A stretch of DNA of 13,355 nt from a virus. Below the pieces are notes generated by a model. That model was not told the origin of the DNA. It ran no database searches and saw only the letters and a list, made by a program, of their open reading frames with translations. Position 1 is the first letter of the stretch; every line of letters begins with the position of its first letter. The position numbers and the translations under genes are program-made. Of the stretch, positions 1-13,355 are shown one piece after another. The DNA lies in UHGV virus genome UHGV-1987395; one strand, 5' to 3'.

Positions 1-1
1 A

Positions 2-346: not shown

Positions 347-386
347 ACATTCTTATTTTTTTACAGTATTCTAAAGGAAATTTAAA

Positions 387-533
387 ATGTATGGCGATTT
401 TGATTATTACCTGGAAAAGGAAAAATATTTTGAAGATGAACTATCACAACATTTTTCATATTGGGAAGAATATTGTGGTTGGTTAGCTGAAGATCCAGCA
501 GATGAAGAAAATGATTCTGACATCCCTTATTAA
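387..533 (+). CDS. small acidic hypothetical protein (48 aa)
   Basis: ATG at 387 preceded by AGGAAA 6 nt upstream; translation MYGDFDYYLEKEKYFEDELSQHFSYWEEYCGWLAEDPADEENDSDIPY is very D/E-rich. Below the 60-aa cut-off of the ORF track; preferred over the overlapping 298..486 ORF, which has no RBS. Confidence 0.35.
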   Translation: MYGDFDYYLEKEKYFEDELSQHFSYWEEYCGWLAEDPADEENDSDIPY

Positions 534-631
534 TTAATATCCCCTGTTATCCCCAAACAAACTAAATAAATAAACTAAGCACTAGAACTAGATTGATTGC
601 CCTGATCTTTTAAACGTTCGGAGAATTAATC

Positions 632-1117
632 ATGTTCAAATCTGATCTTTCTGATTCCCAATTTGAAAAACTGGTAGCACTGCAGAAATATCTCCCCAGT
701 GATGATCAACCAACACGACAGGCTAAACACTTATTAGTCGAGGGCTTTACCCCTGAATTCGTGGCGGAATATACAGGCGTTAAACTTGAGAAAGTCCAAA
801 AACTATATAATGAGTCCTGGAATCCACGGTGTCGAGTTCCCCTCAGTGTCTACAACGAAATAGATAGAGATAGAAATGTCTTCGAAGATCGCCGCCGCAA
901 ATCTCTTTTAATGTGGAATTGTGGGATGAATATTGAAGAGATAGCAAAAGAATTAAAAGTAACCTGCTTTCATGTCTGGGGCTTGTTGAGTGAAATCCTG
1001 CCACGTAAGGAGCTTAATCAACGTTTGCCTAAGCCCGGTAGTCGTGCTTATCGCGAATTTATATTCATCTACCGCCGCCATAGCAATAAAGTCCGGAAAG
1101 CAATGCAGCGCAAATAG
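632..1117 (+). CDS. putative HTH transcriptional activator (Mor/C-like or sigma region-4-like)
   Basis: GGAG 8 nt upstream of ATG; segment RRKSLLMWNCGMNIEEIAKELKVTCFHVWGLLSEI resembles, from memory, the C-terminal HTH of Mu Mor/C-family activators; basic C-terminus. Confidence 0.4.
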   Translation: MFKSDLSDSQFEKLVALQKYLPSDDQPTRQAKHLLVEGFTPEFVAEYTGVKLEKVQKLYNESWNPRCRVPLSVYNEIDRDRNVFEDRRRKSLLMWNCGMNIEEIAKELKVTCFHVWGLLSEILPRKELNQRLPKPGSRAYREFIFIYRRHSNKVRKAMQRK

Positions 1118-1205
1118 CTTATAGCCTTCACATATGCCGCAAGTTATTGATTCTGCCGTCCGGTAAATATGCCGGATGGCTCATATAAATTTTAAGGAAT
1201 TCCAA

Positions 1206-1649
1206 ATGTCTCAAATCGCTAAATTATTATCCCAGGTTATCAAAGCTATCGACGCTGAAGATTCAAAAGTTCGCCAGGATCTTTTAGATGGCAAGTTTAC
1301 CAACACCCTGGCATTTACCCGTGACAAAGAGCACTTCTTAAAACACAGACACCACGCTTTTGCTGAATGCAAGTCCGCTAATGGTGATGTTTTCTATGTC
1401 GATTTGGTGGTTATGGCATGTAGGCTGTGGATGATTCAGGACCTTATGCGCCAACACGGTGATGATCCTCTTATCAGCATGTGGAACAGCGCCCAGGATG
1501 GCTTTGTGATTGCTGCCTTATCCAAATCAATGATTGAGGCAGAAGGGGCAAGCCTTCAGAACATGGCAGATCTCTTTGAAATAAGCGTAGGAATGATGCA
1601 GACCATGCTCCAAGCTGTCAAACCTCTCAAACTGGTTAATCTTGATTAA
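1206..1649 (+). CDS. hypothetical protein
   Basis: ORF 1176..1649 in the track; ATG at 1206 has AAGGA 8 nt upstream, whereas ATG at 1176 has no clear SD. No family recognised. Confidence 0.45.
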   Translation: MSQIAKLLSQVIKAIDAEDSKVRQDLLDGKFTNTLAFTRDKEHFLKHRHHAFAECKSANGDVFYVDLVVMACRLWMIQDLMRQHGDDPLISMWNSAQDGFVIAALSKSMIEAEGASLQNMADLFEISVGMMQTMLQAVKPLKLVNLD

Positions 1650-1703
1650 GATATTGATAAATAAGCACTCCCCATTTTTTTGGGGGTGCATCAATGAGAG
1701 GAT

Positions 1704-2093
1704 ATGCCTATGAATATTGAAGAAATGATAGTTGAATTCGAAGAGGGTGATTTCCTGGAAGAAGGGGAGTTTAAATACTCCCGTTTTAAACAGGCGTTAT
1801 TTAGCAGCGATGATAAACCCCACGTTAGTGATCTTAATGATGATGATTTATGTCGCCTGGTGTGCACCCGCTTATATGAAGATGGAAAGTATACAGGCCA
1901 AAACTTTCCAAATCTCTATTTCAAAGCACAAACATTTGAGGAAGGGCAAAGAGTGAAAAACCTGGTCGATCAAATGCTGTCAGCCGGATATTTGCATAAA
2001 GAATTATTAAATCCTAAAGCTGAAAGCAAGCGCCATTATATTTTTGTGTGGTCTGTGGGGGATAAGTGCCCACTGAAGCGTAAAGGTAAATGA
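1704..2093 (+). CDS. hypothetical acidic protein; possible tail assembly chaperone
   Basis: GAGAGGA SD upstream of ATG; acidic N-terminus; lies two genes upstream of the tape measure gene, the usual position of chaperones. Call is positional only. Confidence 0.4.
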   Translation: MPMNIEEMIVEFEEGDFLEEGEFKYSRFKQALFSSDDKPHVSDLNDDDLCRLVCTRLYEDGKYTGQNFPNLYFKAQTFEEGQRVKNLVDQMLSAGYLHKELLNPKAESKRHYIFVWSVGDKCPLKRKGK

Positions 2094-2094
2094 T

Positions 2095-2280
2095 ATGAAT
2101 ACCTACGAAAAGATTTATCAAAAATTAAAAAGTGATAACAATGCTCCCGTCATCAAGGGCGGGGCTTCTTCCTCTGGTGACCTCTCAATCGAAGAGCTTG
2201 CGGAGAAATATAATATTGATAAAGAGGCCCTGAAAAGGGCTATTTCATTATCAAAATCTTTAAGACAGGGCGAGGTGTAA
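2095..2280 (+). CDS. hypothetical small protein (61 aa)
   Basis: ATG 1 nt after the stop of the upstream ORF (TGAtATG), suggesting translational coupling; ends 3 nt before the tape measure start. Confidence 0.35.
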   Translation: MNTYEKIYQKLKSDNNAPVIKGGASSSGDLSIEELAEKYNIDKEALKRAISLSKSLRQGEV

Positions 2281-2283
2281 GAG

Positions 2284-4404
2284 ATGGCAATGAAGGAAGT
2301 AGCCAAGCTAACAAACGTTATTTACTGGGATTCTGATAAATCCTCCTGGCGAAAAGAAGTTAAACGGCTTGAGGATTATAAAAAATCCTGGAAGAAAGCT
2401 ACCGACGATATAGCTAAAGCGGATTTTAAATCGAATCAGGCTGTGCTCAGAACACAAAGAACACGCGCTAAGGTGGAAGAGCAGATTGCCAGAGCTCAGA
2501 GGAAACAACAGGAAGCACAGAAGAAACAACGTGCTCAGGCTGTCAGCCGTCTGACCGGGGGCAATAATCCGGAGCTCTCCTCTATGCGCAAGTTCTATCA
2601 GCAGCAAGCCAGAGAGGCCGCCAGACAACAAAAACTGTTAGATCGTAGTGTTGGAGATGTTCAGCACAGAAAAGCACGTGTAGGGGCCAACAGTGCACGA
2701 ATCAGCAGTATGTTTGATGGCTCCCTGGTTGCTCAGTTCCAAAGCAGAATCCAGAGAGTTAATGCTGATTATGCTAAAGGGGCTATCAACCTGCAGACCT
2801 ATAATCAGAGGATGGCCCGACTCAGATCTGAAATGAAGATGGCAACAGCTGAAGCCGGAAAATTCCAGAGCAGACTAGATAAACTGGCATCAGGTGCCAG
2901 CAAGGTGCATGACAACCTGGGCAAAATCAACTCCACGCTGGGCAAGATAGCCATTGGCCTTACTGCCGCTGGCTGGGGTGTTCAGCGTGCTGTTAGTGGT
3001 GCTATGGGTAGCCTTGCAGATCGCAACAGTGCCTACTTCGGTTTGATGGCACAGAACAAGGATGATAAAGCCAAGACTGATCAGCAGATGGCTTTTATCA
3101 AGAACACAGCCTACACCTATGGGATGGATGAGCGGGAGATGCAAGGGGGCTACATGCGCTTTGCTGCAGCTACCCCCACCATGAAGGAATCTGATAAGCA
3201 GGCTCTCTTTGAGGCTATGGCTATTAAAGGCCGCTCAGTGGGTGCTACTGGCGAGCAACAGAACAGGGCGCTTGTTGCGGTCCAACAAATGGCTTCAAAG
3301 GGAAAAGTTATGGCGGAAGAGCTGCGGGGCCAACTGTCAGAAGCCTTTGCAGGCTCACAACAGGACTTCCAACAGGCCGCTATTGATGCCGGAATCATCA
3401 AAAATACCCAGGAATTCGATAAAGCCCTTAAAGATGGCAAAATCACCCTGGACAAACTTCTTCCCTCTCTGGTGAAAATCTGGGGTGCAGCAAAAGAAAC
3501 TAAAGCTTTTGCTGAATCCATGAAACAGCCAGAAGTAGCAATGCAGCGCATGAAAAACAGCTTTAACGAGCTGGCGATTCAGTTTATGGGTGTTGTGGAT
3601 CCTGCAGATGGCGTTATTAGCTTATCTGAATCTCTAATCTCCATCTTCGAAGACCTCACCACTGATATGGACGGCAGCGGGAGCGCGGCAAAACAGTTTG
3701 GTGAGGCAGTCGGTGCTGCCATGCGGGAGATCATGTATTGGGTAGGCTTCGCTAAGGGATATATTGAGGTCAAGGCTAAAGAGTTCGGCATGACCGGATC
3801 AGAGGTTGGCGAGCTTATCGGGAAACTGGTAGTCGGCTTAGCTGGTCTGAAAGTTATTACCACACTGCTTTCCCCTCTGACCGGATTTGTTTCACTTGTC
3901 ACTCAGCTGATAGCCTTGTTAGGTAAAATCCCTGGTATGAGCAAGCTTCTGGCTTCTGCCTCAGGTGGAACGGCAACAGGAGCAGCGGTCATCAGTGCAG
4001 GATCTAACGCTGAAAGAAGCTTCATTGATGGCAAGACGCAGGAAATGAGTAAGGAGAACTCAAAACAGGGTGCTTTGTTTGAGCTGGGAAGATTTGTCAG
4101 CAATGCTGGCGCACTGTTCACACCTGGCGGCGATACTGGTCCTTTGTTCGATCAGGTCAGAGGCTGGTTTAATAAAGGGCCAACATTGACAGTAGACACT
4201 GGCATCAGACCAACACCGACGGGTGGCATGGCTATCCAGAATGGTGGATATCAACCAGTCCAAGTAAATGTAGCCCCACAAGGTGAGATTTCCGGCAAAT
4301 GGGAGATAACCATCGATGAGGGGGGAATTGCCAGGGTAATTCAGAAGGAAGTCAGCGATCAGTTGGATTGGAAAGCCACACAGGAATCTAACCAGCTTTT
4401 CTAA
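2284..4404 (+). CDS. phage tail tape measure protein
   Basis: 706 aa; N-terminal Q/R/K/A-rich predicted coiled coil; central region (NKDDKAKTDQQMAFIKNTAYTYGMDEREMQGGYMRFAAATPTMKESDKQALFEAMAIKGRSVGATGEQQNRALVAVQQMASKG...) resembles the conserved tape-measure core domain; Gly-rich hydrophobic segment near the C-terminus. Confidence 0.7.
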   Translation: MAMKEVAKLTNVIYWDSDKSSWRKEVKRLEDYKKSWKKATDDIAKADFKSNQAVLRTQRTRAKVEEQIARAQRKQQEAQKKQRAQAVSRLTGGNNPELSSMRKFYQQQAREAARQQKLLDRSVGDVQHRKARVGANSARISSMFDGSLVAQFQSRIQRVNADYAKGAINLQTYNQRMARLRSEMKMATAEAGKFQSRLDKLASGASKVHDNLGKINSTLGKIAIGLTAAGWGVQRAVSGAMGSLADRNSAYFGLMAQNKDDKAKTDQQMAFIKNTAYTYGMDEREMQGGYMRFAAATPTMKESDKQALFEAMAIKGRSVGATGEQQNRALVAVQQMASKGKVMAEELRGQLSEAFAGSQQDFQQAAIDAGIIKNTQEFDKALKDGKITLDKLLPSLVKIWGAAKETKAFAESMKQPEVAMQRMKNSFNELAIQFMGVVDPADGVISLSESLISIFEDLTTDMDGSGSAAKQFGEAVGAAMREIMYWVGFAKGYIEVKAKEFGMTGSEVGELIGKLVVGLAGLKVITTLLSPLTGFVSLVTQLIALLGKIPGMSKLLASASGGTATGAAVISAGSNAERSFIDGKTQEMSKENSKQGALFELGRFVSNAGALFTPGGDTGPLFDQVRGWFNKGPTLTVDTGIRPTPTGGMAIQNGGYQPVQVNVAPQGEISGKWEITIDEGGIARVIQKEVSDQLDWKATQESNQLF

Positions 4405-4504
4405 TGTCCACTCTGTGGATTTGAGTTCTACTCAAACCTGCATAGCAGGCACTGATATTGTGATCAAAATCAATAAGTTAGCCTGACCGGGTAAACTCCA
4501 GGCA

Positions 4505-4537
4505 AGAAAAAAGCCCCTAAGTGTTAACAAAGGGGCT
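4505..4537 (-). terminator. candidate intrinsic terminator, minus strand
   Basis: 7-bp stem AGCCCCT (4512-4518) / AGGGGCT (4531-4537) with a 12-nt loop, followed on the minus strand by TTTTTT (plus A-run 4505-4511). Confidence 0.45.
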
Positions 4538-4957
4538 CTTCTCCGGTATCCTTTTGATGCGGGGCGAACCTGCTAACAAAAATCAACCTCTCGCGAGACT
4601 AATGTTAGCAGGTTGCCGGAAGGTAAGTCAACTCCGGTCTATAAACCTTAAAGCGACTATAAAATCGCCCCGCCAATTGTGATGATCCGACCTTTGAGGC
4701 GGGTCCGGTGCCCAGGGGGGTGCAGTGATGCACAAACCAGGCAACGATAAACAGGCTAACAGTGATAGCGGCGCTCAATCAGCGCACTAAATCCTAACCA
4801 GTCCGGGAAAGAGGCTGGCTCTATCGACCGCTCATGCACGGGACAATGCATACCTGATAAAGGATTCTCACAAGGGACCAATCGCGAGAAAAGAAGAGGA
4901 AAGGGGCTGATTTGTGGTGTATCACTACGGCCTCAAAAGACCTTCTATTGTCTTTTT

Positions 4958-5416
4958 TCAACCTCTCCCCACATTTGACCAGTATTTGATTGCACCGATC
5001 AAATCATCATAGTGGCGCATTGCATCATTGAAGCCTTTATAGCTTGCCCATTGTGGGGAAACCTTGTTATTGCTGAATTGCCCACTAATCAGGATAGTCT
5101 CCAGAATGTCGGCGTATCGCTTGCCAATTCGCTTTCTGACGGCCTCAGAGCTTCCACCCTTTACGATTGCATTAATCAGGGCTTTTGTGTGTCTCAGGCT
5201 CTCATAGAGCATTGCAGCGTGGGCAGATTCCATAAAGGAGCGCTTAGGCAGATCACCCCACCCCTCAGAGTGGATAGCTGCCAGTGTGGCGTAATTCAGG
5301 CCGCTATAGTGCTTTCCGTCATCCCAGCCAACCGCTACACCTTCCATCTGTGAGAGCTCTTTATGCAGCTTATCCATCATGCGCTTGTCTATGGTGCAAC
5401 GGACTTTCGGACTCAT
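4958..5416 (-). CDS. putative virion morphogenesis / head-tail joining protein
   Basis: 152 aa; ATGA start-stop overlap with the upstream gene; segment LAAIHSEGWGDLPKRSFMESA resembles, from memory, the motif of HK97 gp10-like head-tail joining proteins. Weak. Confidence 0.35.
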   Translation of the reverse strand: MSPKVRCTIDKRMMDKLHKELSQMEGVAVGWDDGKHYSGLNYATLAAIHSEGWGDLPKRSFMESAHAAMLYESLRHTKALINAIVKGGSSEAVRKRIGKRYADILETILISGQFSNNKVSPQWASYKGFNDAMRHYDDLIGAIKYWSNVGRG

Positions 5417-6216
5417 TTGTTGATCTCCGTGATGTCATCGAGCAACATGTTGGCCTTATCAATCATCGTTTCGTGGAACTCATTCGACACAACAGACTTA
5501 TCACCTGCGGCAATCTTTCCCGCTGCCTCTCCCTGTGCATATTCCCCGCGATGCTTAGCCCTGGTAGATTTCGTAGCAGCGTTGCCAGCGTTGCTACCCT
5601 CTTTAGCACTGTTAACAGCACCCTTTTGCTGTGTTTTATTCACCTTCTTACTGTTAGTGAAAACTCCGGCATTTTCGACCATCTTCACCTTGAAGGTGCG
5701 GAATTCTTCAAAGGTGCAATCAATAGTGATGCAGTCACCAGAGGAAGAGCTACGCTTAACTTCACATTTCGTCATGATGAAGTTCTCAAGGAGTCCGGCA
5801 TCTTCACTCACCAGGCTGACCAGCTGGCGCTTGTCTCTCATTTCCATAAGTGCCTGAACAGCGGCAGCAGGGCGCATAGATTCACGGGGATTATCTGGAT
5901 CAGTGTTCCGGTCGATGTAGTTCTCTTTCCGGATGATATAAGGGGAAGAGGTAATAATACCCGTAAAGCTGACAGATTTATCTTTAATGACGGCATGGTC
6001 TGACATGGTGGTGCCATCCTCGACCGCATAGCTCGATTTCTCAACAGGGAACGAATAGCTGACATCAGAGATAGAGTCAAAGAAGATAGCCACATTATCG
6101 GTATAGTTGAAGCCATCCATTATATTTTTGTTTTGTGAATATCCCCCACACATAACAGTGAATGCAGGAGATCTCGACTCAGCTTGTTTTGCAGCTGTCA
6201 GAGCATCACTAGCCAT
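5413..6216 (-). CDS. hypothetical protein, probable virion protein by context
   Basis: ORF 5413..6225 in the track; ATG at 6216 has GGAGG 10 nt upstream, while the ATG at 6225 sits 1 nt from the SD. In the capsid operon; no family recognised. Confidence 0.45.
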   Translation of the reverse strand: MASDALTAAKQAESRSPAFTVMCGGYSQNKNIMDGFNYTDNVAIFFDSISDVSYSFPVEKSSYAVEDGTTMSDHAVIKDKSVSFTGIITSSPYIIRKENYIDRNTDPDNPRESMRPAAAVQALMEMRDKRQLVSLVSEDAGLLENFIMTKCEVKRSSSSGDCITIDCTFEEFRTFKVKMVENAGVFTNSKKVNKTQQKGAVNSAKEGSNAGNAATKSTRAKHRGEYAQGEAAGKIAAGDKSVVSNEFHETMIDKANMLLDDITEINK

Positions 6217-6321
6217 ATTAAACATGCCTCCAAAATGAATCTTTTCGTTGCCCTGCTTAAAATCTGCAGAAAATACAGGGCAGTTATTCGTTAGAATCGC
6301 TTATAGCTCTTCCCGAGAGCG

Positions 6322-6573
6322 TTATTTTGCAAAACGATTATGGGCATTCAGGGCTTTTTTGCGGTCCTGGGCTTGTTTGCGTGCAATAAAATGTTCGAAA
6401 GTCTCGGCCCAGGTGCATTTATTATATTCACGGTATTTATGCATAGCCTGGCGGCTAACGTCATAGCAGGCGGCAAATGTGGAGATACGCAGGAATTCCG
6501 GCAGATCCTCGTCATCGATATGGATAATATCAAAAGGCACGTCGTCACGGTCGCCGTATAAAACAATTTTCAT
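6322..6573 (-). CDS. hypothetical small protein (83 aa)
   Basis: ATG at 6573 with GAGGTG 6 nt upstream; the 6582 start in the track is GTG. Lies just downstream of the post-capsid terminator hairpin. Confidence 0.4.
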   Translation of the reverse strand: MKIVLYGDRDDVPFDIIHIDDEDLPEFLRISTFAACYDVSRQAMHKYREYNKCTWAETFEHFIARKQAQDRKKALNAHNRFAK

Positions 6574-6605
6574 AAAATACACCTCAAAAACTTAAGACGG
6601 GGATA

Positions 6606-6670
6606 ACAAAAAAGGGAAGAGGGAAAGACCTATCCCCGATCTCTCACCTCTTCCCTTTGCTTTTATTTGG
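6606..6670. terminator. bidirectional intrinsic terminator/attenuator between capsid gene and downstream gene
   Basis: 9-bp stem GGGAAGAGG (6614-6622) / CCTCTTCCC (6647-6655); flanked by an A-run 6608-6613 (a T-run on the minus strand) and a T-rich tract 6656-6668 on the plus strand. Confidence 0.55.
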
Positions 6671-6686
6671 CCTTCGAAGAAGGACC

Positions 6687-7730
6687 TTATTTAGCCTTGG
6701 CTTTTGCCAGAGCAGCGGCGGCGGAGTTTTTAACACTCACTTTAACCACAACTTCGGGCATCATGTTCATGAAAGCATAAGAGGATTCAACGAAGATTTC
6801 TCGTTTGCCTCTGGACTCTTCCATATACATGAAAGCTTCACGTGCAGCGCCGTTTGCAAGCTTCAGGTTGCGAGCGCAAGGGCCGAAAAATTGAGTATAA
6901 ACGCCCACCATATCGCCTAACGCATGCGGCTGGAACTGTGGGACCAGATAAGCAGTATTCTCTGGCAGACTATCCATTTGCACCACACGCAGAGCTAAGC
7001 CCGGAATGCGGAAGGTCGGGAAGCCCGGCAGAATATCCTCAGGGAACATCAGACCTTTGTCGGTAATATTCTGATTGCCGAACAACAGCACTTTACGGAG
7101 CAGTTCATCAGTCTGAATAGCGGCGAACACCTCAGCACGGCAGAACAGGGTGAAACCACGCAGAGCGCGAACGACACCACGCTGTTTAACCTTGCTCAGT
7201 GCAACCAGGTCCTGCAGTTGTTTGAGAATATCTTGAGCTAGATCCATTTCAGAGGTGGACTGTTCCACGCCCAGCAGTTCGCACACATTCAGCTCTTTAC
7301 CCTTGGTGAGGATAATTTTGTTCTCAAAGAGAGCAAGCTGGCGTGCTTCTTCGTGGGTCTGGCGTAAGCCTTCGCCCAGTTGAATAACACGACGAGCGGT
7401 TACAGACTCTAAATTCTCTTCGGAATCTTTGCCAGGAACACGAATACCCTGCCAGTCAGAAGGATAAATAGCACTTGATGCGGCAGTGAACGCCATATCA
7501 CCCGTGCCCGTTTCACGCTCATCTGCGGTAATGGTCGCCATCTGTTCACCGTAGCGCGGATACTGACCGAAAGCGGTTTGTTTCACCTGGCGAACTTTGT
7601 CATATTCAAATTTAAAGGTATTGCACAGAGCAGTAGTGTTGAAGATATCCATTGCTGAAATAATCTGGTTATCCAGCGGGATGTCTTTAATCAAGCCACA
7701 CAGATCGCGGACTTCGAATTCTTTTTTCAT
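6687..7730 (-). CDS. phage major capsid protein (E-family-like)
   Basis: 347 aa from ATG 7730 with AAGGAGG 6 nt upstream (the 7736 start in the track is TTG); size and position directly after a decoration-like gene match the usual decoration + E-family capsid pairing; Ala/Lys-rich C-terminal tail. Confidence 0.6.
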   Translation of the reverse strand: MKKEFEVRDLCGLIKDIPLDNQIISAMDIFNTTALCNTFKFEYDKVRQVKQTAFGQYPRYGEQMATITADERETGTGDMAFTAASSAIYPSDWQGIRVPGKDSEENLESVTARRVIQLGEGLRQTHEEARQLALFENKIILTKGKELNVCELLGVEQSTSEMDLAQDILKQLQDLVALSKVKQRGVVRALRGFTLFCRAEVFAAIQTDELLRKVLLFGNQNITDKGLMFPEDILPGFPTFRIPGLALRVVQMDSLPENTAYLVPQFQPHALGDMVGVYTQFFGPCARNLKLANGAAREAFMYMEESRGKREIFVESSYAFMNMMPEVVVKVSVKNSAAAALAKAKAK

Positions 7731-7741
7731 CTCCAACCTCC

Positions 7742-8077
7742 TTATTGTGCAATTCGCAAATCGCCATTGCTGGCAGCGATAACAGCGGCTAAGCCTTCTT
7801 TATCCACGTAGGCCGGATTGATGTAGCAACCTTTGTTGGCAACAACGATAAAAGCATCACCAACCTCAGCACGTTCTACAACCAGCAGCGGAGTTTTACC
7901 GGTGTGCGTTGCTTTAACGAAGGTCTCAACCTCGCCAGCCTCAGTCACCACAACAACAGTGCCAGCCGGAATCTCAGCCTTAACTTTGTTTTTAACTTCA
8001 ACGTCGCGAATACTAAATTGCTCATCTGCGGCGTATGAAATGATGTGTCCGCGTGTGCGGATAGTCATATCTCTCAT
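7742..8077 (-). CDS. putative head decoration protein (DUF2190-like)
   Basis: 111 aa; AGGTGA 4 nt upstream of ATG; Val/Gly/Ala-rich beta-type sequence; sits directly upstream of the capsid gene, with its stop overlapping the capsid SD. Confidence 0.5.
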   Translation of the reverse strand: MRDMTIRTRGHIISYAADEQFSIRDVEVKNKVKAEIPAGTVVVVTEAGEVETFVKATHTGKTPLLVVERAEVGDAFIVVANKGCYINPAYVDKEGLAAVIAASNGDLRIAQ

Positions 8078-8567
8078 TTGATCACCTGCGATTTAAATTA
8101 ACTCCCCTCAAAGAGTTCCGGTATAACCTCTCAAACCACGACAGGCTCGGGCCGAAAAGTTATGCCGGAAATCTAAAGGGAAATTGATACAAGGAGAGGG
8201 AGATAGCCCCGCACCGTAGCCAAGCGGGGGCTATTCCACATGGGGAAACCGACAACAGTCGGATGATAGTTCACAGTATGGTTACGGTTACTAGAGAGCA
8301 CTATCACGAAAGGCACTCCCCCGAATCAGTTCAGGCTGCGGTCACATCAGCGGGGAAATACCTTTCGGGATAGCTACCCACACAGAAAACCCGCAAAAGA
8401 AAACTGTGTGGATAACTAGCCCAATAGGAGAATTAATCGACCACTCAACGATGATCAGGGTAGTGTTATTTATAAGGCGGCACCGCTACCTGGTCGCCTT
8501 TACTTTGGAGGAAAATACGGCAAATCAAGATCTTCTCAAATGATATTGATTCCATACTATACTGTAT

Positions 8568-8596
8568 ATTATATCAGTATTTACTCACATTGTCAA
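8568..8596 (-). promoter_or_regulatory. consensus sigma70 promoter reading leftward toward the capsid operon
   Basis: On the minus strand: TTGACA (plus 8596-8591), 17-nt spacer, TATAAT (plus 8573-8568). Perfect match at both hexamers with optimal spacing. Confidence 0.6.
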
Positions 8597-8750
8597 CACC
8601 TTGATTATATAAATTCTAATAATTAGCGTAGTAACGGTATTTTCAGACCTCTATCAATCCCATCAATACGTCACCCCCACCCTTTAGATGCATACATCCG
8701 ACCTACTTTGTAGGCTTGGCGTACTGCCAAGGTCGCAGCTATGCGACTCC

Positions 8751-8783
8751 TATCTATCACCACTTTATAAAGCTTGATAGATA
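8751..8783. promoter_or_regulatory. dyad-symmetric operator-like site
   Basis: TATCTATCA (8751-8759) and TGATAGATA (8775-8783) are perfect inverted repeats, concentric with an inner perfect palindrome CTTTATAAAG (8763-8772); overlaps a candidate -35 TTGATA at 8774-8779. Confidence 0.4.
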
Positions 8784-8926
8784 TCTTTTGATCAATATCA
8801 ATGTTTTCCAGAGATTTACCCGGCTATAGTTCGAATCAAGGAAGGGGAGCATTGATAGAGACACCCAAAGGGGTGACTGAAAGTCACCTGGCATAGCCAG
8901 TGAAAGCACCCAACCGAACAAACAAA

Positions 8927-8944
8927 TCAACTTCTCGCAAAAGG
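8927..8944 (+). promoter_or_regulatory. conserved 5'-UTR motif, copy 1
   Basis: TCAACTTCTCGCAAAAGG ends 8 nt before ATG 8953; near-identical to the copy at 9446-9464. Confidence 0.4.
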
Positions 8945-8952
8945 TGATAGTT

Positions 8953-9075
8953 ATGGGTATCAAGAACAGTGCCAGCGCATGGCAAAAGGCCAGGTTTCAT
9001 CACCCACACATGGTCAAGGCAATTGAGGTGGTTGGAGTTTTAGCCCTGATGTTAGCTCTGTGTGTGGAGGTGTGA
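8953..9075 (+). CDS. possible small membrane peptide (40 aa)
   Basis: AAGGTGA SD; translation MGIKNSASAWQKARFHHPHMVKAIEVVGVLALMLALCVEV has a C-terminal hydrophobic helix; preceded by the conserved TCAACTTCTCGCAAA motif. Below the track cut-off. Confidence 0.25.
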   Translation: MGIKNSASAWQKARFHHPHMVKAIEVVGVLALMLALCVEV

Positions 9076-9076
9076 G

Positions 9077-9157
9077 ATGGGTAAAGGAGGCAAAGAATTT
9101 TTAATAGGTCTGGCAGTCTTAGATTTTGTATTAATCATCATTGAGCGGAGTTTATGA
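9077..9157 (+). CDS. possible small membrane peptide (26 aa)
   Basis: GGAGGTG SD 4 nt upstream; translation MGKGGKEFLIGLAVLDFVLIIIERSL; its stop overlaps the next start as ATGA. Confidence 0.2.
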   Translation: MGKGGKEFLIGLAVLDFVLIIIERSL

Positions 9158-9414
9158 CGGGAACTAAAGATATTAAGAGACTGAGGGAAGAGCTGATAGC
9201 TGAAATTAAAGCTAAGGCAAAGCAAATGGAGATAGCCGCACAAATGGATGTAGCGGAACAGATGTACAAGATGGTTGAGGAGGGAACGCCACGACAGGTT
9301 ATAGCAAAAACCTTCGGTGTGGGGATCGCCACCGTGCACAGAAGGCTGAAAGCCTATGCCGACTACCACAATATCGAGAGAAAGGAGGATGGGAGATTTA
9401 AGAAGAATAAATAG
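9154..9414 (+). CDS. small DNA-binding protein with resolvase/invertase-type HTH
   Basis: 86 aa; charged helical N-terminus; C-terminal GTPRQVIAKTFGVGIATVHRRLK resembles, from memory, the Hin/Gin C-terminal HTH (GHPRQQLAIIFGIGVSTLYRY); no recombinase catalytic domain. Confidence 0.5.
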   Translation: MTGTKDIKRLREELIAEIKAKAKQMEIAAQMDVAEQMYKMVEEGTPRQVIAKTFGVGIATVHRRLKAYADYHNIERKEDGRFKKNK

Positions 9415-9445
9415 TGTGAACAGTCCAATAGGTTATTAACTAAAT

Positions 9446-9464
9446 TCAACTTCTCGCAAAGGGG
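9446..9464 (+). promoter_or_regulatory. conserved 5'-UTR motif, copy 2
   Basis: TCAACTTCTCGCAAAGGGG ends 7 nt before ATG 9472; same motif as 8927-8944. Confidence 0.4.
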
Positions 9465-9471
9465 TACCACT

Positions 9472-10059
9472 ATGAACATTAAAACTATCATTGCAGCCAT
9501 CACCATTGCCTTTAGTGCCAACACTGCAGCTATTGATGTTAATTTATTTCAGAAGATGACTTGCGAAGATAAATTAGTTGCCATGGATAAGGGGCTAGAA
9601 GCCACGCATAATGGGGAACAGTTTCATTTCTCCTTGAAGAATCTTATCTTGCCCCTGGATTCTGCCGCACAGGTATATGCAACATTGGGTAAATTTGAGA
9701 AGCCGGAAATTGACCTGCAGGGCGTGAGAGCGAAGATCACCAAAAGAAATGAAAGCATTTGTGATATAGCGGTTACGGCCCTTATGACAGATGATGAAAA
9801 AACGATTATAGCTACATGCAAAGATAGCAACGACAACGAACGATTCTTTAAGATCACCCACAACAGGCCCGTTTCTTTCTACTCTAATGCCACAATGGGC
9901 GCGGGTATGCAGTGGCTGAAGAGAGCTAAAGTAACTGAGGTTAATGCTGATGACGATTTATCCTATGAATACGGTTTTATTTCCAATTATATGGCGTGGC
10001 ACCTGAAAAAATGCGGCATCAATGGTCAGGCATACGACAATGGATTTTGGTTTTTCTAA
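9472..10059 (+). CDS. secreted/periplasmic protein of unknown function
   Basis: N-terminal signal peptide MNIKTIIAAITIAFSANTAA with an AxA-like cleavage site; AGGGG SD; followed by an intrinsic terminator at 10081-10106; ends in aromatic FWFF. Confidence 0.55.
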   Translation: MNIKTIIAAITIAFSANTAAIDVNLFQKMTCEDKLVAMDKGLEATHNGEQFHFSLKNLILPLDSAAQVYATLGKFEKPEIDLQGVRAKITKRNESICDIAVTALMTDDEKTIIATCKDSNDNERFFKITHNRPVSFYSNATMGAGMQWLKRAKVTEVNADDDLSYEYGFISNYMAWHLKKCGINGQAYDNGFWFF

Positions 10060-10080
10060 CCTATTAAGTTAATCCCACCT

Positions 10081-10106
10081 GGGGGCCATCACGGCCCCTT
10101 TTTATT
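10081..10106 (+). terminator. intrinsic terminator after the secreted-protein gene
   Basis: GGGGCC (10082-10087), loop ATCAC, GGCCCC (10093-10098), then TTTTTATTT. Confidence 0.65.
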
Positions 10107-10108
10107 TA

Positions 10109-10164
10109 TCCCCTATTTAACCCCTATTTAATGGGTATTTAATGCCTATTTATTGATTTAATGG
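10109..10164. repeat. five tandem copies of an 11-bp unit (consensus about CCCTATTTAA)
   Basis: TCCCCTATTTAA / CCCCTATTTAA / TGGGTATTTAA / TGCCTATTTAT / TGATTTAATGG in direct succession immediately after the terminator; 11-bp period is about one helical turn. Confidence 0.55.
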
Positions 10165-11566
10165 TTTTGGGCATTGTTGACAGTGTAAGAGAGAGGATGT
10201 AACCCTTTTTTGTAATACTAATAAAATCAATAGCTTAGCTCAATTGGCCTTTTCTCTGTTTTTGTCAAATTTAACATACCCTAAAAAACTGCAAAATCTG
10301 GCTGCAAGATTATCTGCAGCTGGATTTCTTACACCTCATTTTGTGGTATCACCCTGACTAGTTTGTGCATAAAATGAACAGTTTTTAACATTTCCTCTTC
10401 ACCTGGTAACCACACAAAAAGCTAAAAACGAGGCACAGATAATCTTAGAGGCCTGTTTTCTTGTTATCACTCTAGAAACGTCGTAGAGATGATTTTAATG
10501 AAAGATGACCTACCCTATTACACCCCTATTTTTTGTTATCACAATTGCATCCTGTGCGGTGTATGGCTATGTGCTGAAAGCGGTCTTATGTGTGGGTGTC
10601 AGAAATATCCATTAGCGGTATTAATACCCGTCGGAGATTCGTCTGAGGTGCCAGGCAGGCGCTCCCCCACCTCCCTTTTTTCTTCTAACAATTCTCAAAT
10701 ATCACACCACTGCCGACCACGTTACTACTCTGTTAATTCTTAAGCTTTGCTGTATGTTGTGCACATTATTTATTCAGGTGGCTGTACGTAAATTCTGTGC
10801 CCACTGATCATGATTTTTAAATCAGATTTTGTAGTTCGCTTTATTAGTGTAGATAAGATCTATTATGTTAAATGCAATTTTCCCAACCCTTCAAATCAAT
10901 GACTTACATGTAAGTATGCACTAACACCCCACACAGCACATTAGACGTATAGATGGCTATATCCCACATTTTTGATTGTTTTGTAGTCATTCCCCTGATC
11001 ATTTAACCAGTATAGTTTGTTCTCTGTAGACCACAAAATCGGAATTTACATCTGATTAACATAATCTGTTAGCATGATCACTATTACCCACACAACAATA
11101 ACCCCATGCAAGCCTCTTTAGGCAATTTATCGGCGTGTTGGTGTGAACAGTCTTTCATGTTCTTTATGAATTCATGACTGCAAGGAATGTATTCATTGTC
11201 CTGTGTGGGGGAAGGATGGACTGCCCCAGGGGCCATAGTTATGACACCCGGTCAACATAACTGTCGATAAAATCAACGGGTGTTGGTATGCATATTTCCC
11301 ACACATGAGAGAAAATCAAAGCAAAGAGAGAGGAGAGAGGTTTGCTAGTCAAAATAGGTCAATTGACGGCTAATACAGAGTAAAAAATCAGATGCAATCA
11401 CTCCCCCACCTGTTGGGATTTCCTACAACCCCTTTCAGTCATACTCAGGCACCACACCCCGGTAAATATTACCGCACTAACCTGTAAAGAATTTTCACAC
11501 CTGTGTGTTTATACAGTCATACTCTCCTGTTTTGCAGTCATTGCACCCATGATACACAGCCCCTAA

Positions 11567-11676
11567 CCTGTCAAAATATTTTACTACTTAGCCACTATAG
11601 CTATGCATACCTGTAAAATATTTTTACTACTACCTGTCAAAATACTTTACTACTACCTGTAAAAATATTTGACACT
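11567..11676. repeat. iteron-like 22-bp direct repeats (four copies, plus a degenerate copy at 11481-11500)
   Basis: CCTGTCAAAATATTTTACTACT (11567-11588), CCTGTAAAATATTTTTACTACT (11610-11631), CCTGTCAAAATACTTTACTACT (11633-11654), CCTGTAAAAATATTTGACACT (11656-11676); the last three are spaced 23 bp start to start. Confidence 0.6.
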
Positions 11677-11789
11677 AATAGATAAAGTAATAGACCACAC
11701 AAGATCCCCCCTAACCCCCCAGGGGGAATGGGGAGGGATCAGAGAGTGGGGAAGGTTTTCTAAGGGAAAAGCTTAACCCACAAATGAAA

Positions 11790-11818
11790 GCCTAAAGAGC
11801 ATTAGCGACTCTTTAGGC
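11790..11818. repeat. perfect 10-bp inverted repeat (hairpin or operator)
   Basis: GCCTAAAGAG (11790-11799), 9-nt spacer, CTCTTTAGGC (11809-11818); the half-site CTCTTTAGGCAAT recurs at 11114-11126. Confidence 0.5.
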
Positions 11819-12258
11819 AATATGTGTGTGGGTCACTCTGTGACTTTAGCTATACAGCTAAACCGACTACGTCGGCCTGTGTGTGGGGGTGACAATGTAT
11901 TCCATACATGACACGTCACCCAATTGTGTGTGGTCCGGCGAATGCGTCAGCATGAGGCCCACATGTGGACCGCTGCCGAAAGCTTGCCAGCGCCGGAAGG
12001 AGGCAGCAAAGAGTCTCCCGCGCGGGTGCACGCACACACATACAAAGGATACACTCATAAATCGAAAATAAGCCACCTAAATGGCCTTCTGGCTGCATTA
12101 ACTAGTGTGAGTAGTGCAATTGCATTACCTGACCTCTAAATCGCGTTAGAATCGATTTTAGAGCGCTTAAGGCAAAAAGTGCCCTCCCTTGTGGGCTTGC
12201 TTGTGTCTGCTGTGCAGGCTATGGCACCTATAGCACACCTAAATGATAATAATTCTCA

Positions 12259-12277
12259 TTGACAATTGGTTGACAAT
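12259..12277. promoter_or_regulatory. tandem TTGACAAT boxes (candidate operator or overlapping -35 elements)
   Basis: TTGACAAT at 12259-12266 and 12270-12277, 11 bp apart; a third copy at 12449-12456 forms the -35 of the downstream promoter. Confidence 0.4.
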
Positions 12278-12448
12278 GTGATAAGATTATAAATAGGGGG
12301 AGAAACAGATCCGGAGGTCAATGTGGAAATTACTGATGCAATAGCGATCATCAACCTGGCTGTACTGTGGTGCGGTGTTGCCTACATAGCCGGAGTAACT
12401 GCAATCGACAATCTTGAAGAAAAAATGATAGATAAATACAAAAAGATT

Positions 12449-12477
12449 GTTGACAATTTGACGAATGTCTGATAAAA
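12449..12477 (+). promoter_or_regulatory. sigma70-like promoter upstream of the 71-aa gene
   Basis: TTGACA (12449-12454), 17-nt spacer, TAAAAT (12472-12477). Confidence 0.5.
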
Positions 12478-12605
12478 TATAAAGCATAGGGTAATTCTCA
12501 TCATAGTGAATTTCCTTTAGTAGACTGGCGGGGGCTTGTCTTAAGTTCCCGTTTCTTTTTAATCATATATCGCACAGGTTAGTGAGCTAACAGGAGGCTT
12601 ATACT

Positions 12606-12821
12606 ATGGCTAAAACCGGACCGATCAGCCAGTTGGTAAACTGGACTACTGACGAAATCGTCGAGAACGTACTTAAGGGGAACTTCCGCAAAACTTCCGT
12701 TTATGCATTCATTCGTAAACATAAAGGAGAATATCCACACATTGAAGAAGCAATTTTAAAACTAAATTGCATTCGCCTTGAGCGGGAACTGGCTAAATAC
12801 ACCAATAACATTAATAAATAA
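12606..12821 (+). CDS. hypothetical small protein (71 aa), possible DNA-binding regulator
   Basis: AGGAGG 8 nt upstream of ATG; lies about 130 nt downstream of a consensus-like promoter; no family recognised. Confidence 0.45.
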   Translation: MAKTGPISQLVNWTTDEIVENVLKGNFRKTSVYAFIRKHKGEYPHIEEAILKLNCIRLERELAKYTNNINK

Positions 12822-12835
12822 TTATGGGGGAATTA

Positions 12836-13355
12836 TGGCAAGTAATTACGGGGAAAATTTTACTCCCCTTTTTAAACGTTTCATCAAATACATTTTTAAA
12901 AATCCGATTGCAAAAACTACAACCAATAAAGAAAGATTTCACTTAAACTTGTTGGAAATGACAATTTACGGTGAGATGGCAAGTTTTAATGCTGCAGGTT
13001 GTGAAATATTTATCTCTGAACAGAGATTAGCAGACGATTATGATGTTTCAAGACCGACAGTTATTAACTCGATTAAATCTCTAGAAAATGCCGGGCTTAT
13101 TTCAATAGTTAAAAGTAAAGGCAAATCTAATCATTACAAACTGCTAATTACCCCTGATCAGCTTGGCAAGATGTGTGATGAGCAGGGTATTAAAACCTCC
13201 GACAGTGTGGGATCTAGTAAAGAGGCCCCCGATAATCAACAGGAAGCCCCAAAACAAGCCACACAGCAAGCTAAAAAGGCCGAGGTGGTGCAATTGCCTA
13301 CCCAACCTAAGAACGAGCGCAGAGAGCGCTTTAGAGACGCTGGCAAACGTGAGAA
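12836..13355 (+). CDS. winged-HTH DNA-binding protein, putative replication initiator or regulator (3'-truncated)
   Basis: Open from ATG 12836 to the window end; segment ISEQRLADDYDVSRPTVINSIKSLENAGLISIVKSKGKSNHYKLL is a classic winged-HTH; followed by a low-complexity Q/K/A/E-rich linker. Confidence 0.5.

What the first reader, a model, noticed from the sequence alone, without database searches (positions are those of the whole stretch)
11107..11822. Perfect 10-bp inverted repeat with a distant copy of its half-site
GCCTAAAGAG-N9-CTCTTTAGGC (11790-11818) is a perfect hairpin or dyad operator. The 13-nt CTCTTTAGGCAAT reappears about 700 bp upstream (11114-11126), suggesting two binding sites for one factor or a duplicated RNA element.
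Basis: seen in the sequence. Interest (0 to 1): 0.35.

Follow-up and report, generated by a model that had tools for sequence, protein, structure and literature searches.

The report
Conserved stem-loop beside plasmid replication origin
The perfect hairpin is real and conserved, but it looks like one unit in a row of small stem-loops next to the replication origin of a phage-related E. coli plasmid, most likely a transcription stop signal rather than a protein operator with a second distant site.

Summary
In detail: GCCTAAAGAG-N9-CTCTTTAGGC lies at 11790-11818, and CTCTTTAGGCAAT recurs at 11114-11126.

The window is a complete ~13.3 kb circular E. coli plasmid. It has iterons, a Rep-like gene, and capsid and tail genes distantly related to rV5-like (Vequintavirinae) phages.

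In 20 of 22 relatives the two arms are invariant. The 9-nt loop mutates, and in six relatives it is inverted. The other two relatives carry a different module in the same slot, and that module is homologous to a non-coding region of rV5.

The hairpin sits ~110 bp from the iterons. It lies where an over-represented octamer switches from CCCACA.. to TGTGTGGG. It is the first unit of an array of interchangeable small stem-loop cassettes separated by that octamer.

On the minus strand the hairpin looks like an intrinsic terminator: -16 kcal/mol, followed by UUUCAUUU. A U-rich tail is kept in all three flank versions.

The distant 13-mer is exact in only 4 of 17 relatives, and nothing supports a two-site operator.

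My best guess (about 0.3) is a minus-strand terminator that shields the origin. Close rivals are a plus-strand RNA module and a single-stranded-DNA origin hairpin. The hairpin itself is ordinary; its context is not.

The parts
11790..11799 (.). Left arm of the hairpin, GCCTAAAGAG
   Evidence: Read directly. Invariant in 20 of 22 relatives.
11800..11808 (.). Loop/spacer, cattagcga
   Evidence: Four versions among relatives: cattagcga (11), catgagcga (3), inverted ttgctaatc (5), inverted ttgctaatg (1).
11809..11818 (.). Right arm of the hairpin, CTCTTTAGGC
   Evidence: Read directly. Invariant in 20 of 22 relatives. The stem alone folds at -15 to -17 kcal/mol as RNA on either strand.
11780..11789 (-). 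U-rich tail (TTTCATTTGT on the minus strand) directly 3' of the stem. Stem plus tail has the shape of an intrinsic terminator.
   Evidence: Terminator scan: 11 pairs, 5 G-C, loop 7, tail TTTCATTTGT. The tail stays U-rich in all three flank versions: UUUCAUUU, UUCUCUUU, UUUAUUGG.
11777..11784 (-). CCCACAAA, an octamer-like motif (TTTGTGGG on the minus strand) that brackets the hairpin on the left
   Evidence: It pairs with 11826-11832 as an outer stem in the predicted folds. Missing in L048.
11825..11832 (+). TGTGTGGG octamer that brackets the hairpin on the right and opens the cassette array
   Evidence: 10 copies in the window against 0.37 expected. Present after the hairpin in almost all hairpin-bearing relatives; L005 reads TGTAGGGG there.
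11114..11126 (+). Distant copy of the 13-mer. Bases 11112-11123 (GCCTCTTTAGGC) form a 4-bp mini-hairpin.
   Evidence: Polymorphic in relatives: exact in 4 of 17.
11087..11209 (.). CCCACACA (11087-11094) ... TGTGTGGG (11202-11209) bracket around copy 1
   Evidence: The predicted closing stem is not significant, z = -1.9.
11833..11877 (+). Cassette A: three small hairpins (gtcac/gtgac, tttagct/agctaaa, ccgac/gtcgg)
   Evidence: Present, absent or replaced among relatives, with junctions at the octamer. Six covarying stem positions across cassette types, no mismatch.
11888..11924 (+). Cassette B: long hairpin ggtgac...gtcacc
11934..12024 (+). Cassette C. Bases 11963-12027 are 83-87% identical to a non-annotated locus of about 119 rV5-like phage records.
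11477..11677 (.). Iterons: 23-bp units such as ACCTGTCAAAATATTTTACTACT. This is the replication origin.
   Evidence: Whole-unit replacement by other 23-bp units in relatives.
11675..11760 (.). A short A+T-rich stretch (AATAGAT x3) followed by a G+C-rich stretch, lying between the iterons and the hairpin
   Evidence: Read directly. Conserved in the relatives that have the hairpin.
12249..12287 (.). Promoter-like sites: + strand 12259-12287 (10/12, towards rep) and the only minus-strand candidate upstream of the hairpin, 12276->12249 (9/12)
   Evidence: The block is conserved in most relatives.

Best explanation
The hairpin is a conserved cis-acting stem-loop. It is the origin-proximal unit of an array of small stem-loop modules separated by the octamer TGTGTGGG, and it acts through its structure rather than as a protein operator.

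The mechanism I commit to is a factor-independent (intrinsic) terminator for leftward, minus-strand transcription. RNA polymerase arriving from the cassette array or the rep-promoter region would transcribe GCCUAAAGAG-ucgcuaaug-CUCUUUAGGC followed by UUUCAUUU and release. That would keep transcription out of the G+C-rich/A+T-rich unwinding region and the iterons about 110 bp further on.

Shown: the element exists, it is conserved, it has the shape of a terminator on one strand only, and it lies at the edge of the origin.

Inferred: that minus-strand transcription reaches it, and that it terminates that transcription.

The upstream 13-mer is most simply an eroded paralogue of the same module, not a second working site.
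For: 1. Terminator scan, minus strand: 11 pairs, 5 G-C, loop 7, tail TTTCATTTGT. Nothing comparable on the plus strand, where the tail is AAUAUGUG.
2. The stem alone folds at -14.6 to -18.8 kcal/mol in all four natural variants.
3. The left flank has three different sequences among relatives (aaatgaaa, aaagagaa, caataaa). All give a U-rich tail on the minus strand. This includes L048, where the alternative outer-stem partner CCCACAAA is lost.
4. The arms are invariant in 20 of 22 relatives. The loop carries at least 3 substitutions and is inverted in 6 relatives. This fits a function that needs the stem but not the loop orientation.
5. It is the last terminator-like site on the minus strand before the iterons. 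A 9/12 minus-strand promoter-like site lies at 12276->12249.
6. The plasmid's strong promoters all point away from the origin: 8596->8568 (12/12), 12259-12287 and 12450-12478. This fits an origin kept free of transcription.
Against: 1. No good minus-strand promoter feeds the hairpin. There is only a 9/12 match about 430 nt upstream, it is degraded in L005-type relatives, and another terminator-like site (12087-12070) lies in between.
2. The neighbouring cassettes look like plus-strand RNA:
   - cUUCGg and GAUA (GNRA) loops appear only on that strand.
   - In cassette E, the positions that are G-C in L048 (GCGAAGC) form G.U on the plus strand in L047, L002 and L004, which would be A.C on the minus strand.
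   - The L043 stem (GCCGAC/GTCGGT) has a G.U on the plus strand.
   - The TGTGTGGG...CCCGCGCG closure of cassette C needs G.U pairs.
   - The rV5 homologue lies in the sense direction of all its flanking genes.
3. The octamer polarity diverges from the hairpin, which is not the arrangement expected around a terminator.
4. The two relatives without the hairpin (L004, L047) show no replacement terminator.
5. Terminator-like sites are not rare in this region: 5 found against 2.6 expected.
6. The stems show no covariation, so RNA pairing is not proven.
Confidence: 0.3

Rival explanations
1. Plus-strand RNA module. The hairpin, closed by an outer CCCACA/UGUGGG stem, is the first structured unit of a non-coding plus-strand RNA that continues through cassettes A, B and C towards the rep operon. 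That RNA is related to a 5' leader of rV5-like phages. It could act as a 5' stabiliser or processing unit, or respond to the helper phage.
For: - A two-tier fold of -26.2 kcal/mol, z = -5.8.
- The same slot between CCCACAAA and TGTGTGGG is filled in L004 and L047 by module X. X is homologous to rV5 and differs from it by two compensatory double changes.
- The strand hints for the neighbouring cassettes all favour the plus strand: UUCG and GNRA loops, G.U pairs, and phage gene direction.
- The octamer is in the sense orientation in the plasmid's own operons: 6152(-), 8384(-), 2045(+).
Against: - No sigma-70-type promoter lies upstream on the plus strand, apart from a 9/12 match inside the iterons.
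- The hairpin itself carries no strand-specific signal on the plus strand.
- The outer stem is lost in L048.
- The hairpin is absent from the phages.
Confidence: 0.25
2. Single-stranded-DNA hairpin of the origin. After Rep opens the A+T-rich region, the palindrome folds on one or both strands. It then serves as a priming or primosome-assembly signal, in the manner of ssiA/ssiB in the RSF1010 oriV palindrome or the G4/phiX-type ssi signals of plasmids.
For: - The layout is iterons, then A+T-rich and G+C-rich stretches, then the palindrome.
- A perfect palindrome gives the same hairpin on both strands: DNA folds of -14.6 and -14.3 kcal/mol, z = -5.8 and -5.2.
- The octamer polarity diverges from it.
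- The three-hairpin cassettes have only Watson-Crick pairs, with 6 covarying positions and no wobble.
- The hairpin is lost together with an exchange of the origin-side segment and the Rep type in L004 and L047.
Against: - No ORF tested has a primase or helicase domain.
- UUCG and GNRA loops and G.U pairs in the neighbouring cassettes point to RNA.
- No sequence comparison with known ssi signals was possible here.
Confidence: 0.17
3. Dyad-symmetric protein-binding site. A plasmid, host or helper-phage dimer would bind the two 10-bp half-sites, possibly also the distant copy.
For: - The arms are invariant while the spacer is free to mutate and invert. This is what a sequence-specific dimer site would show.
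- The hairpin sits at the symmetry point of diverging octamers.
- The plasmid encodes several HTH proteins.
Against: - No promoter is nearby.
- The half-site centres are 19 bp apart.
- There are no further sites in the plasmid, and none were found in the 103 kb of Murica sequence or the 6-kb rV5 locus that were searched.
- The distant copy is mutated inside the half-site in 13 of 17 relatives.
- The same 86-aa HTH allele occurs with and without the hairpin.
- Better operator candidates exist elsewhere: TGCAATTGCA, TTGACAATGTGA at both strong promoters, and CCCCTATTTAA x4.
Confidence: 0.1
4. rrn/nut-type antitermination signal on the plus strand. The hairpin would correspond to boxB, CUCUUUAGGCAAU to boxA (NusB/S10 binding), and UGUGUGGG to boxC. 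It would protect a long untranslated RNA from Rho.
For: - The E. coli rrnB leader reads GCUCUUUAACAAUUUAUCAGACAAUCUGUGUGGGCAC.
- Copy 1 reads CUCUUUAGGCAAUUUAUC, and copy 2 is followed by AUGUGUGUGGGUCAC.
- The octamer is identical to the rrn boxC core.
Against: - Smith-Waterman score of 24 against 23.0 +/- 2.1 in shuffles, so not above chance.
- Only 8 of 13 positions match boxA, and the conserved G is missing.
- In copy 2 the boxA-like bases are locked in the 10-bp stem.
- Copy 1 has CUCUUCA in 12 of 17 relatives and CCCUUCA in one more.
- The octamer occurs on both strands.
- No upstream promoter.
Confidence: 0.04
5. No present function. The palindrome would be a by-product of template-switch ('quasipalindrome correction') events in a recombination-prone, repeat-rich region, and the second copy would be chance or a relic.
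For: - The palindrome alone has p about 0.1.
- Template switching can keep the arms perfectly complementary and can invert the loop.
- The region is mosaic, with modules coming and going.
- Two relatives do without the hairpin.
Against: There are no substitutions in 20 arm bases across 20 relatives that differ in loop, flanks, iterons and cassettes. The U-rich tail is also kept in three flank versions.
Confidence: 0.12

Closest known systems
Rho-independent (intrinsic) transcription terminators of E. coli
   Same: A 10-11 bp stem of about -16 kcal/mol with a 7-9 nt loop, followed directly by a U-rich tract on the minus strand.
   Different: No demonstrated transcription unit ends there. The arms are sequence-invariant rather than covarying. 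The element is bracketed by an inverted octamer and is interchangeable with a non-terminator module (X) in two relatives.
ssi signals at plasmid origins (ssiA/ssiB palindrome of RSF1010 oriV; G4- and phiX174-type priming signals of F, R1, R6K, ColE1). Cited from general knowledge.
   Same: A hairpin-forming palindrome placed next to iterons plus A+T-rich and G+C-rich stretches. The same hairpin is available on both strands.
   Different: No plasmid primase or helicase gene was found. No sequence comparison with ssi signals was made. The neighbouring modules carry RNA-type loops.
rrn leader / lambda nut antiterminators (boxB-boxA-boxC)
   Same: A hairpin, then a CUCUUUA-containing stretch, then UGUGUGGG, which is identical to the boxC core of the rrnB leader.
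   Different: The boxA match is 8/13 and lies inside the stem. The similarity is not above chance and is not conserved in copy 1. The octamer occurs on both strands.
Modular hairpin arrays bounded by short core sites (integron attC arrays; REP/BIME clusters). Cited from general knowledge.
   Same: Variable cassettes gained and lost exactly at a short conserved core. An inverse core and a core flank a hairpin (CCCACAAA ... TGTGTGGG).
   Different: No integrase or RAYT-type transposase. The cassettes are 35-96 nt and non-coding. The core is 8 nt with no resemblance to GTTRRRY or GTAG.

Membership tests
Intrinsic terminator | Stable G+C-containing stem-loop (about 5-14 bp, loop 3-9 nt) | tested here: met
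   10-11 bp, 5 G-C pairs, -14.6 to -18.8 kcal/mol in all natural variants.
Intrinsic terminator | U-rich tract directly 3' of the stem on the transcribed strand | tested here: met
   Minus strand: UUUCAUUU, UUCUCUUU or UUUAUUGG in the three flank versions. Plus strand: AAUAUGUG, not met.
Intrinsic terminator | Lies downstream of a promoter or transcription unit on the same strand | tested here: inconclusive
   Only a 9/12 promoter-like site at 12276->12249, with another terminator-like site at 12087-12070 in between. No expression data.
Intrinsic terminator | Causes transcript release in vitro or in vivo | not testable with these tools
   Needs Term-seq or an in vitro termination assay.
Dyad operator of an HTH dimer | Two conserved inverted half-sites | tested here: met
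   Arms invariant in 20 of 22 relatives.
Dyad operator of an HTH dimer | Overlaps or adjoins the promoter it controls | tested here: not met
   No promoter-like site within about 300 bp on either strand.
Dyad operator of an HTH dimer | Presence co-varies with a cognate DNA-binding protein | tested here: not met
   HTH protein WP_069673451.1 is encoded both by L004 (no hairpin) and L008 (hairpin). Loss of the hairpin does coincide with another Rep type.
Dyad operator of an HTH dimer | The additional (distant) site keeps the recognition sequence | tested here: not met
   Copy 1 differs from the arm in 13 of 17 relatives.
rrn/nut antiterminator (boxA) | Match to the boxA consensus (U)GCUCUUUAACAA | tested here: not met
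   8 of 13 positions and the G before CUCUUUA is absent. Alignment score 24 against 23.0 +/- 2.1 in shuffles.
rrn/nut antiterminator (boxA) | boxA is single-stranded and downstream of a promoter | tested here: not met
   In the hairpin copy the bases form the 3' arm of a 10-bp stem. No upstream plus-strand promoter.
Origin-associated ssi hairpin (RSF1010 / G4 / phiX types) | Hairpin-forming sequence adjacent to the iteron, A+T-rich and G+C-rich core of the origin | tested here: met
   About 110 bp from the last iteron. DNA folds of -14.6 and -14.3 kcal/mol.
Origin-associated ssi hairpin (RSF1010 / G4 / phiX types) | Cognate primase or primosome protein, and priming activity | not testable with these tools
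   No ORF tested has a primase or helicase domain. Host DnaG/PriA or helper-phage enzymes cannot be assessed in silico.

The most novel reading that the evidence does not exclude
The hairpin is the hinge of a previously undescribed cis-element architecture: arrays of interchangeable small stem-loop cassettes separated by the octamer TGTGTGGG. The architecture is shared by rV5-like lytic phages (a 5' leader and the large non-coding region) and by a family of 13-kb E. coli plasmids that carry rV5-related capsid, tape-measure and baseplate genes. On this reading the plasmid is a plasmid-borne satellite of Vequintavirinae, and it uses the array, as RNA or as single-stranded DNA, to sense or exploit the helper's transcription or replication machinery.
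Probability: 0.2. Interest if true: 0.75.

Novelty: new variant of a known kind. Interest (0 to 1): 0.4.

Why it matters
Taken alone, the hairpin is an ordinary conserved stem-loop at the edge of a plasmid origin, and knowing whether it terminates transcription matters only for this replicon.

The context is more valuable. The window is a complete member of an apparently undescribed family of ~13-14 kb E. coli plasmids with the following features:
- Iteron replication.
- No terminase or portal gene recognised.
- Capsid, tape-measure and baseplate genes homologous to those of rV5-like virulent phages.
- Non-coding modules shared with those phages.

If the family proves to be a plasmid-resident satellite of a virulent myovirus, the octamer-and-hairpin array is the obvious place to look for the helper-satellite interface. 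The hairpin described here is its most conserved plasmid-specific unit.

Tried and rejected
1. Rfam. Nothing relevant in the whole window at E <= 1, nor in the hairpin region and the rV5 locus at E <= 10. The only outputs were sub-threshold chance hits. No tRNA or tmRNA.

2. Hairpin pattern in public collections. One viral contig and 21 unrelated genomes matched, at about the number expected by chance. The viral-contig hit, the only one inspected, shows no other resemblance to the window's hairpin region. The hairpin is private to this plasmid family.

3. rrn boxA/boxC resemblance. Looked striking by eye but is not above chance.

4. TGTGTGGG as a DnaA box, a sigma-70 start site or a T7-type primase site. 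Checked by eye on the listed contexts; none fits consistently.

5. Literature searches for the octamer, for satellites of Vequintavirus and for rV5 transcription gave nothing usable. The rV5 genome paper notes only a 'non-coding' box.

6. RNAalifold on a mixed alignment of the two cassette-C types. It gave a poor consensus. Only the TGTGT...CGCGC closure and a few covarying pairs were usable.

7. MAFFT alignment of the three-hairpin cassettes. It put the first hairpin out of register, so pair counts were made by hand.

8. More distant relatives. The capsid protein has only E. coli homologues at 81% identity or more, and the most divergent contig (L033) does not reach the region. Deep covariation tests of the hairpin were therefore impossible.

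9. The last 30 kb of phage Murica (apart from 102.4-105.5 kb) was not searched for the half-site.
Full report
**1. The observation**

The sequence is as described. GCCTAAAGAG lies at 11790-11799, a 9-nt spacer (cattagcga) follows, and CTCTTTAGGC lies at 11809-11818. The 13-mer CTCTTTAGGCAAT occurs at 11809-11821 and at 11114-11126.

It is the only perfect 10-bp inverted repeat with a 3-12 nt loop in the window. Shuffles give 0.14 per window, and 23 of 200 shuffles contain at least one. The palindrome alone is therefore not compelling.

With its flanks it folds at -26.2 kcal/mol on the plus strand and -27.6 kcal/mol on the minus strand as RNA, z = -5.8 and -6.3. As DNA it folds at -14.6 and -14.3 kcal/mol. 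The stem alone is worth -15 to -17 kcal/mol.

**2. What the window is**

The window is a whole circular element. Nearly identical or related 13.2-13.9 kb E. coli 'plasmids' exist in RefSeq, PLSDB, Logan and metagenome assemblies, at 87-98% identity over the non-coding part. One record is a 39.6 kb trimer.

The element encodes:
- a major capsid protein (6687-7736, minus strand);
- a tape-measure protein (2284-4404, plus strand);
- a Dit-like baseplate protein (5413-6225, minus strand);
- a tail-completion protein;
- several small HTH proteins;
- a 288-aa winged-helix Rep-like protein whose gene spans the window ends.

No terminase, portal, primase or helicase was recognised.

The capsid protein has homologues only in E. 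coli, at 81% identity or more. At the protein level, the baseplate, tape-measure and capsid proteins are 49%, 27% and 24% identical to those of the rV5-like phage Murica, with E = 8e-67, 5e-24 and 2e-12.

**3. Where the hairpin sits**

Bases 10060-12322 are non-coding. They contain 23-bp iterons at 11477-11677. In relatives these are replaced wholesale by other 23-bp units. After the iterons come a short A+T-rich stretch, a G+C-rich stretch, and then the hairpin about 110 bp from the last iteron.

The promoters for the rep operon (12259-12287 and 12450-12478, plus strand) lie about 440 bp to the right and point away from the origin.

**4. The octamer and the cassette array**

TGTGTGGG occurs 10 times in the window against 0.37 expected, mostly in non-coding DNA and on both strands. 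Immediately left of the hairpin is CCCACAAA. Immediately right is AAT-ATG-TGTGTGGG. The hairpin therefore lies exactly where the motif switches strand, and the two motif copies can form an outer stem around it.

To the right follows an array of short cassettes, each bounded by the octamer:
- Cassette A (11833-11877) has three small hairpins.
- Cassette B (11888-11924) has one long hairpin.
- Cassette C (11934-12024).

Among 22 relatives these cassettes are present, absent, duplicated, exchanged for other types, or (L005, L044, L051) present in inverted orientation left of the hairpin. The junctions lie at the octamer.

The three-hairpin cassette types differ at six stem positions. All differences are compensated, with no wobble pair and no mismatch. 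These are structure-selected elements.

**5. Link to rV5-like phages**

Bases 11963-12027 (cassette C) are 83-87% identical to a non-annotated spot in about 119 Vequintavirinae records. The spot lies between a GntR-like gene and the tRNA cluster, and all flanking genes run in the direction of the window's plus strand.

The phage locus reads: module X ... TGTGTGGG - module C ... TGTGTGG ... CCCCTAAAT.

A second segment, 8855-8906, is 88-90% identical to the large (~1.7 kb) non-coding region of these phages. That region holds iteron-like repeats and four perfect copies of the octamer. In the first 100 kb of Murica the octamer occurs 12 times against 2.2 expected.

The hairpin's half-site was not found in the 103 kb of Murica sequence or the 6-kb rV5 locus that were searched.

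**6. Conservation of the hairpin**

The arms are identical in 20 of 22 relatives. The loop is cattagcga in 11, catgagcga in 3, and inverted in 6 (ttgctaatc in 5, ttgctaatg in 1). Function is therefore indifferent to loop orientation. Template switching at the palindrome can explain the inversion.

The left flank has three versions (aaatgaaa, aaagagaa, caataaa). All are A-rich, which gives a U-rich tract on the minus strand. The right flank is constant.

L004 and L047 lack the hairpin. There, about 560 nt replace it: three TATCAACATATCAATNTGATATA repeats followed by module X. X sits between the same CCCACAAA and TGTGTGGG. It differs from the rV5 copy by two compensatory double changes, GTCACTCTCC/GGAGAGATGAC against GGCACTCGCC/GGCGAGATGCC.

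Those two plasmids also carry a different Rep type, and the small ORF that follows rep in most other relatives is not called in them.

**7. The distant copy**

Copy 1 is exact in only 4 of 17 relatives. It is CTCTTCAGGCAAT in 12 and CCCTTCAGGCAAT in 1.

It can be read as the hairpin module with 17 central nt removed between two CT dinucleotides. That leaves the mini-hairpin GCCT-CTTT-AGGC, worth -4.7 kcal/mol and not significant.

In L009 and L046 it matches the 3' arm context over 15 nt, which hints at occasional gene conversion.

A local alignment of the module against the rest of the window picks copy 1 as the best hit, but at only 27.5 against 23.5 +/- 2.3 in shuffles. The window as a whole is rich in 13-mer repeats.

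I regard copy 1 as a probable eroded paralogue, not a second working site.

**8. Which strand, and which mechanism**

*For a minus-strand intrinsic terminator.* The scan finds it on that strand only, with 11 pairs and the tail TTTCATTTGT. The U-rich tail survives three flank versions, including L048 where the outer-stem partner is lost. It is the last such site before the origin.

*Against it.*
- The only candidate promoter on that strand is a 9/12 match at 12276->12249, with another terminator-like site in between.
- The neighbouring cassettes look like plus-strand RNA. The loops cUUCGg and GAUA occur only on that strand. In cassette E, the positions that are G-C in L048 (GCGAAGC) form G.U on the plus strand in L047, L002 and L004. 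One stem in the divergent phage L043 has a G.U pair. The TGTGTGGG...CCCGCGCG closure of cassette C also needs G.U pairs. The phage homologue lies in the sense direction of its flanking genes.
- One contrary case is cassette B in L008 and L034, which has A.C on the plus strand and G.U on the minus strand.

*A third reading.* The all-Watson-Crick three-hairpin cassettes, the divergent motif polarity and the position beside the origin fit single-stranded-DNA hairpins. The layout resembles the RSF1010 oriV palindrome that carries ssiA and ssiB (cited from general knowledge).

I therefore commit to the terminator reading only narrowly, at about 0.3. The other estimates are: plus-strand RNA module 0.25, origin ssDNA hairpin 0.17, operator 0.1, relic 0.12, and boxA-type antiterminator 0.04.

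**9. The rrn resemblance**

The rrnB leader contains GCTCTTTAACAATTTATCAGACAATCTGTGTGGGCAC. Copy 1 reads CTCTTTAGGCAATTTATC, and the hairpin copy is followed by ATGTGTGTGGGTCAC.

This is suggestive to the eye. However, the alignment score equals that of shuffled sequence, the boxA match is 8/13, the bases are locked in the stem, and the U-run is broken in most relatives. It remains a low-probability lead.

**10. Verdict**

The hairpin is real and under constraint. It is best described as the origin-proximal module of an octamer-separated stem-loop array. The operator-plus-distant-half-site idea is not supported.

Its own function is probably mundane. The surrounding architecture and the apparent satellite relationship to rV5-like phages appear to be undescribed: the literature searches found nothing.

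Noticed in passing
window 1-13355 (whole): The window is a complete ~13.3 kb circular E. coli plasmid of a narrow family (13.2-13.9 kb monomers; E. coli only). It has iterons and a Rep-like gene plus capsid, tape-measure, Dit-like and tail-completion genes, and no terminase or portal was recognised. The Dit-like, tape-measure and capsid proteins are 49%, 27% and 24% identical to those of the rV5-like phage Murica. It is possibly an undescribed plasmid-borne satellite of Vequintavirinae.
   Followed up: partly
window 6145-6152, 8377-8384, 9003-9010, 10589-11887 (10 sites): The octamer TGTGTGGG occurs 10 times against 0.37 expected, on both strands and mostly in non-coding DNA. It is also enriched in Murica: 12 against 2.2 expected in 100 kb, and 4 copies in the phage's 1.7 kb non-coding region. 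It marks the borders of variable stem-loop cassettes. Its function is unknown.
   Followed up: partly
window 11963-12027 and 8855-8906; L035 2860-3130; L037 1501-1552: Two non-coding segments are 83-90% identical to two different non-annotated loci of about 60-120 rV5-like phage records. The differences include compensatory changes in stems. No Rfam family matches.
   Followed up: partly
window 11477-11677: The 23-bp iterons, each an internal palindrome, are replaced in relatives by at least four other 23-bp unit types while the flanks stay the same. This suggests exchange of Rep/iteron specificity within the family.
   Followed up: partly
window 10846-10873: A dif/cer-like site, AGTGTAGATAA-GATCTA-TTATGTTAAAT. 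The XerD arm matches 11/11 and the XerC arm 7/11 against E. coli dif. It is the single best match in the window and is probably the multimer-resolution site.
   Followed up: partly
window 8568-8596 (-), 12259-12287 (+), 8467-8474 (-): A perfect sigma-70 consensus promoter (TTGACA-17-TATAAT with TG) lies about 490 nt upstream of the capsid operon. It shares the 13-mer GTTGACAATGTGA with the rep-operon promoter. A T4-late-type TATAAATA lies in the long leader (read).
   Followed up: no
window 10100-10151: Four to five tandem 11-bp repeats (CCCCTATTTAA) lie directly after the strong terminator of the HTH operon at 10081-10099. They may be a protein-binding array (partition or regulation).
   Followed up: no
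L004 (between the G+C-rich stretch and module X) and L047, homologous slot: The two relatives without the hairpin carry a ~560 nt replacement with three TATCAACATATCAATNTGATATA repeats. They also have a different Rep type, and the small ORF that follows rep in most other relatives is not called in them.
   Followed up: partly
window 12114-12123, 13288-13297, about 10543-10551: The palindrome TGCAATTGCA, or part of it (GTGCAATTGC), recurs upstream of the rep promoters, inside rep and near 10545. It is a better operator candidate than the hairpin.
   Followed up: no
window 2033-2047 and 6117-6131: The 15-mer CCATTATATTTTTGT occurs twice. The copy at 2033 (+) reads straight into TGTGTGG/TGTGGGGGATA upstream of the ORF that starts at 2095. 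The copy at 6117 (+) lies upstream of the minus-strand Dit-like gene, close to the minus-strand octamer TGTGTGGGGGATA (6152). A shared intercistronic element is possible.
   Followed up: no
window 12323-12472: A conserved 49-aa ORF with a hydrophobic core (MEITDAIAIINLAVLWCGVAYIAGVTAI...) is the first gene after the rep-operon promoter. No family match.
   Followed up: no
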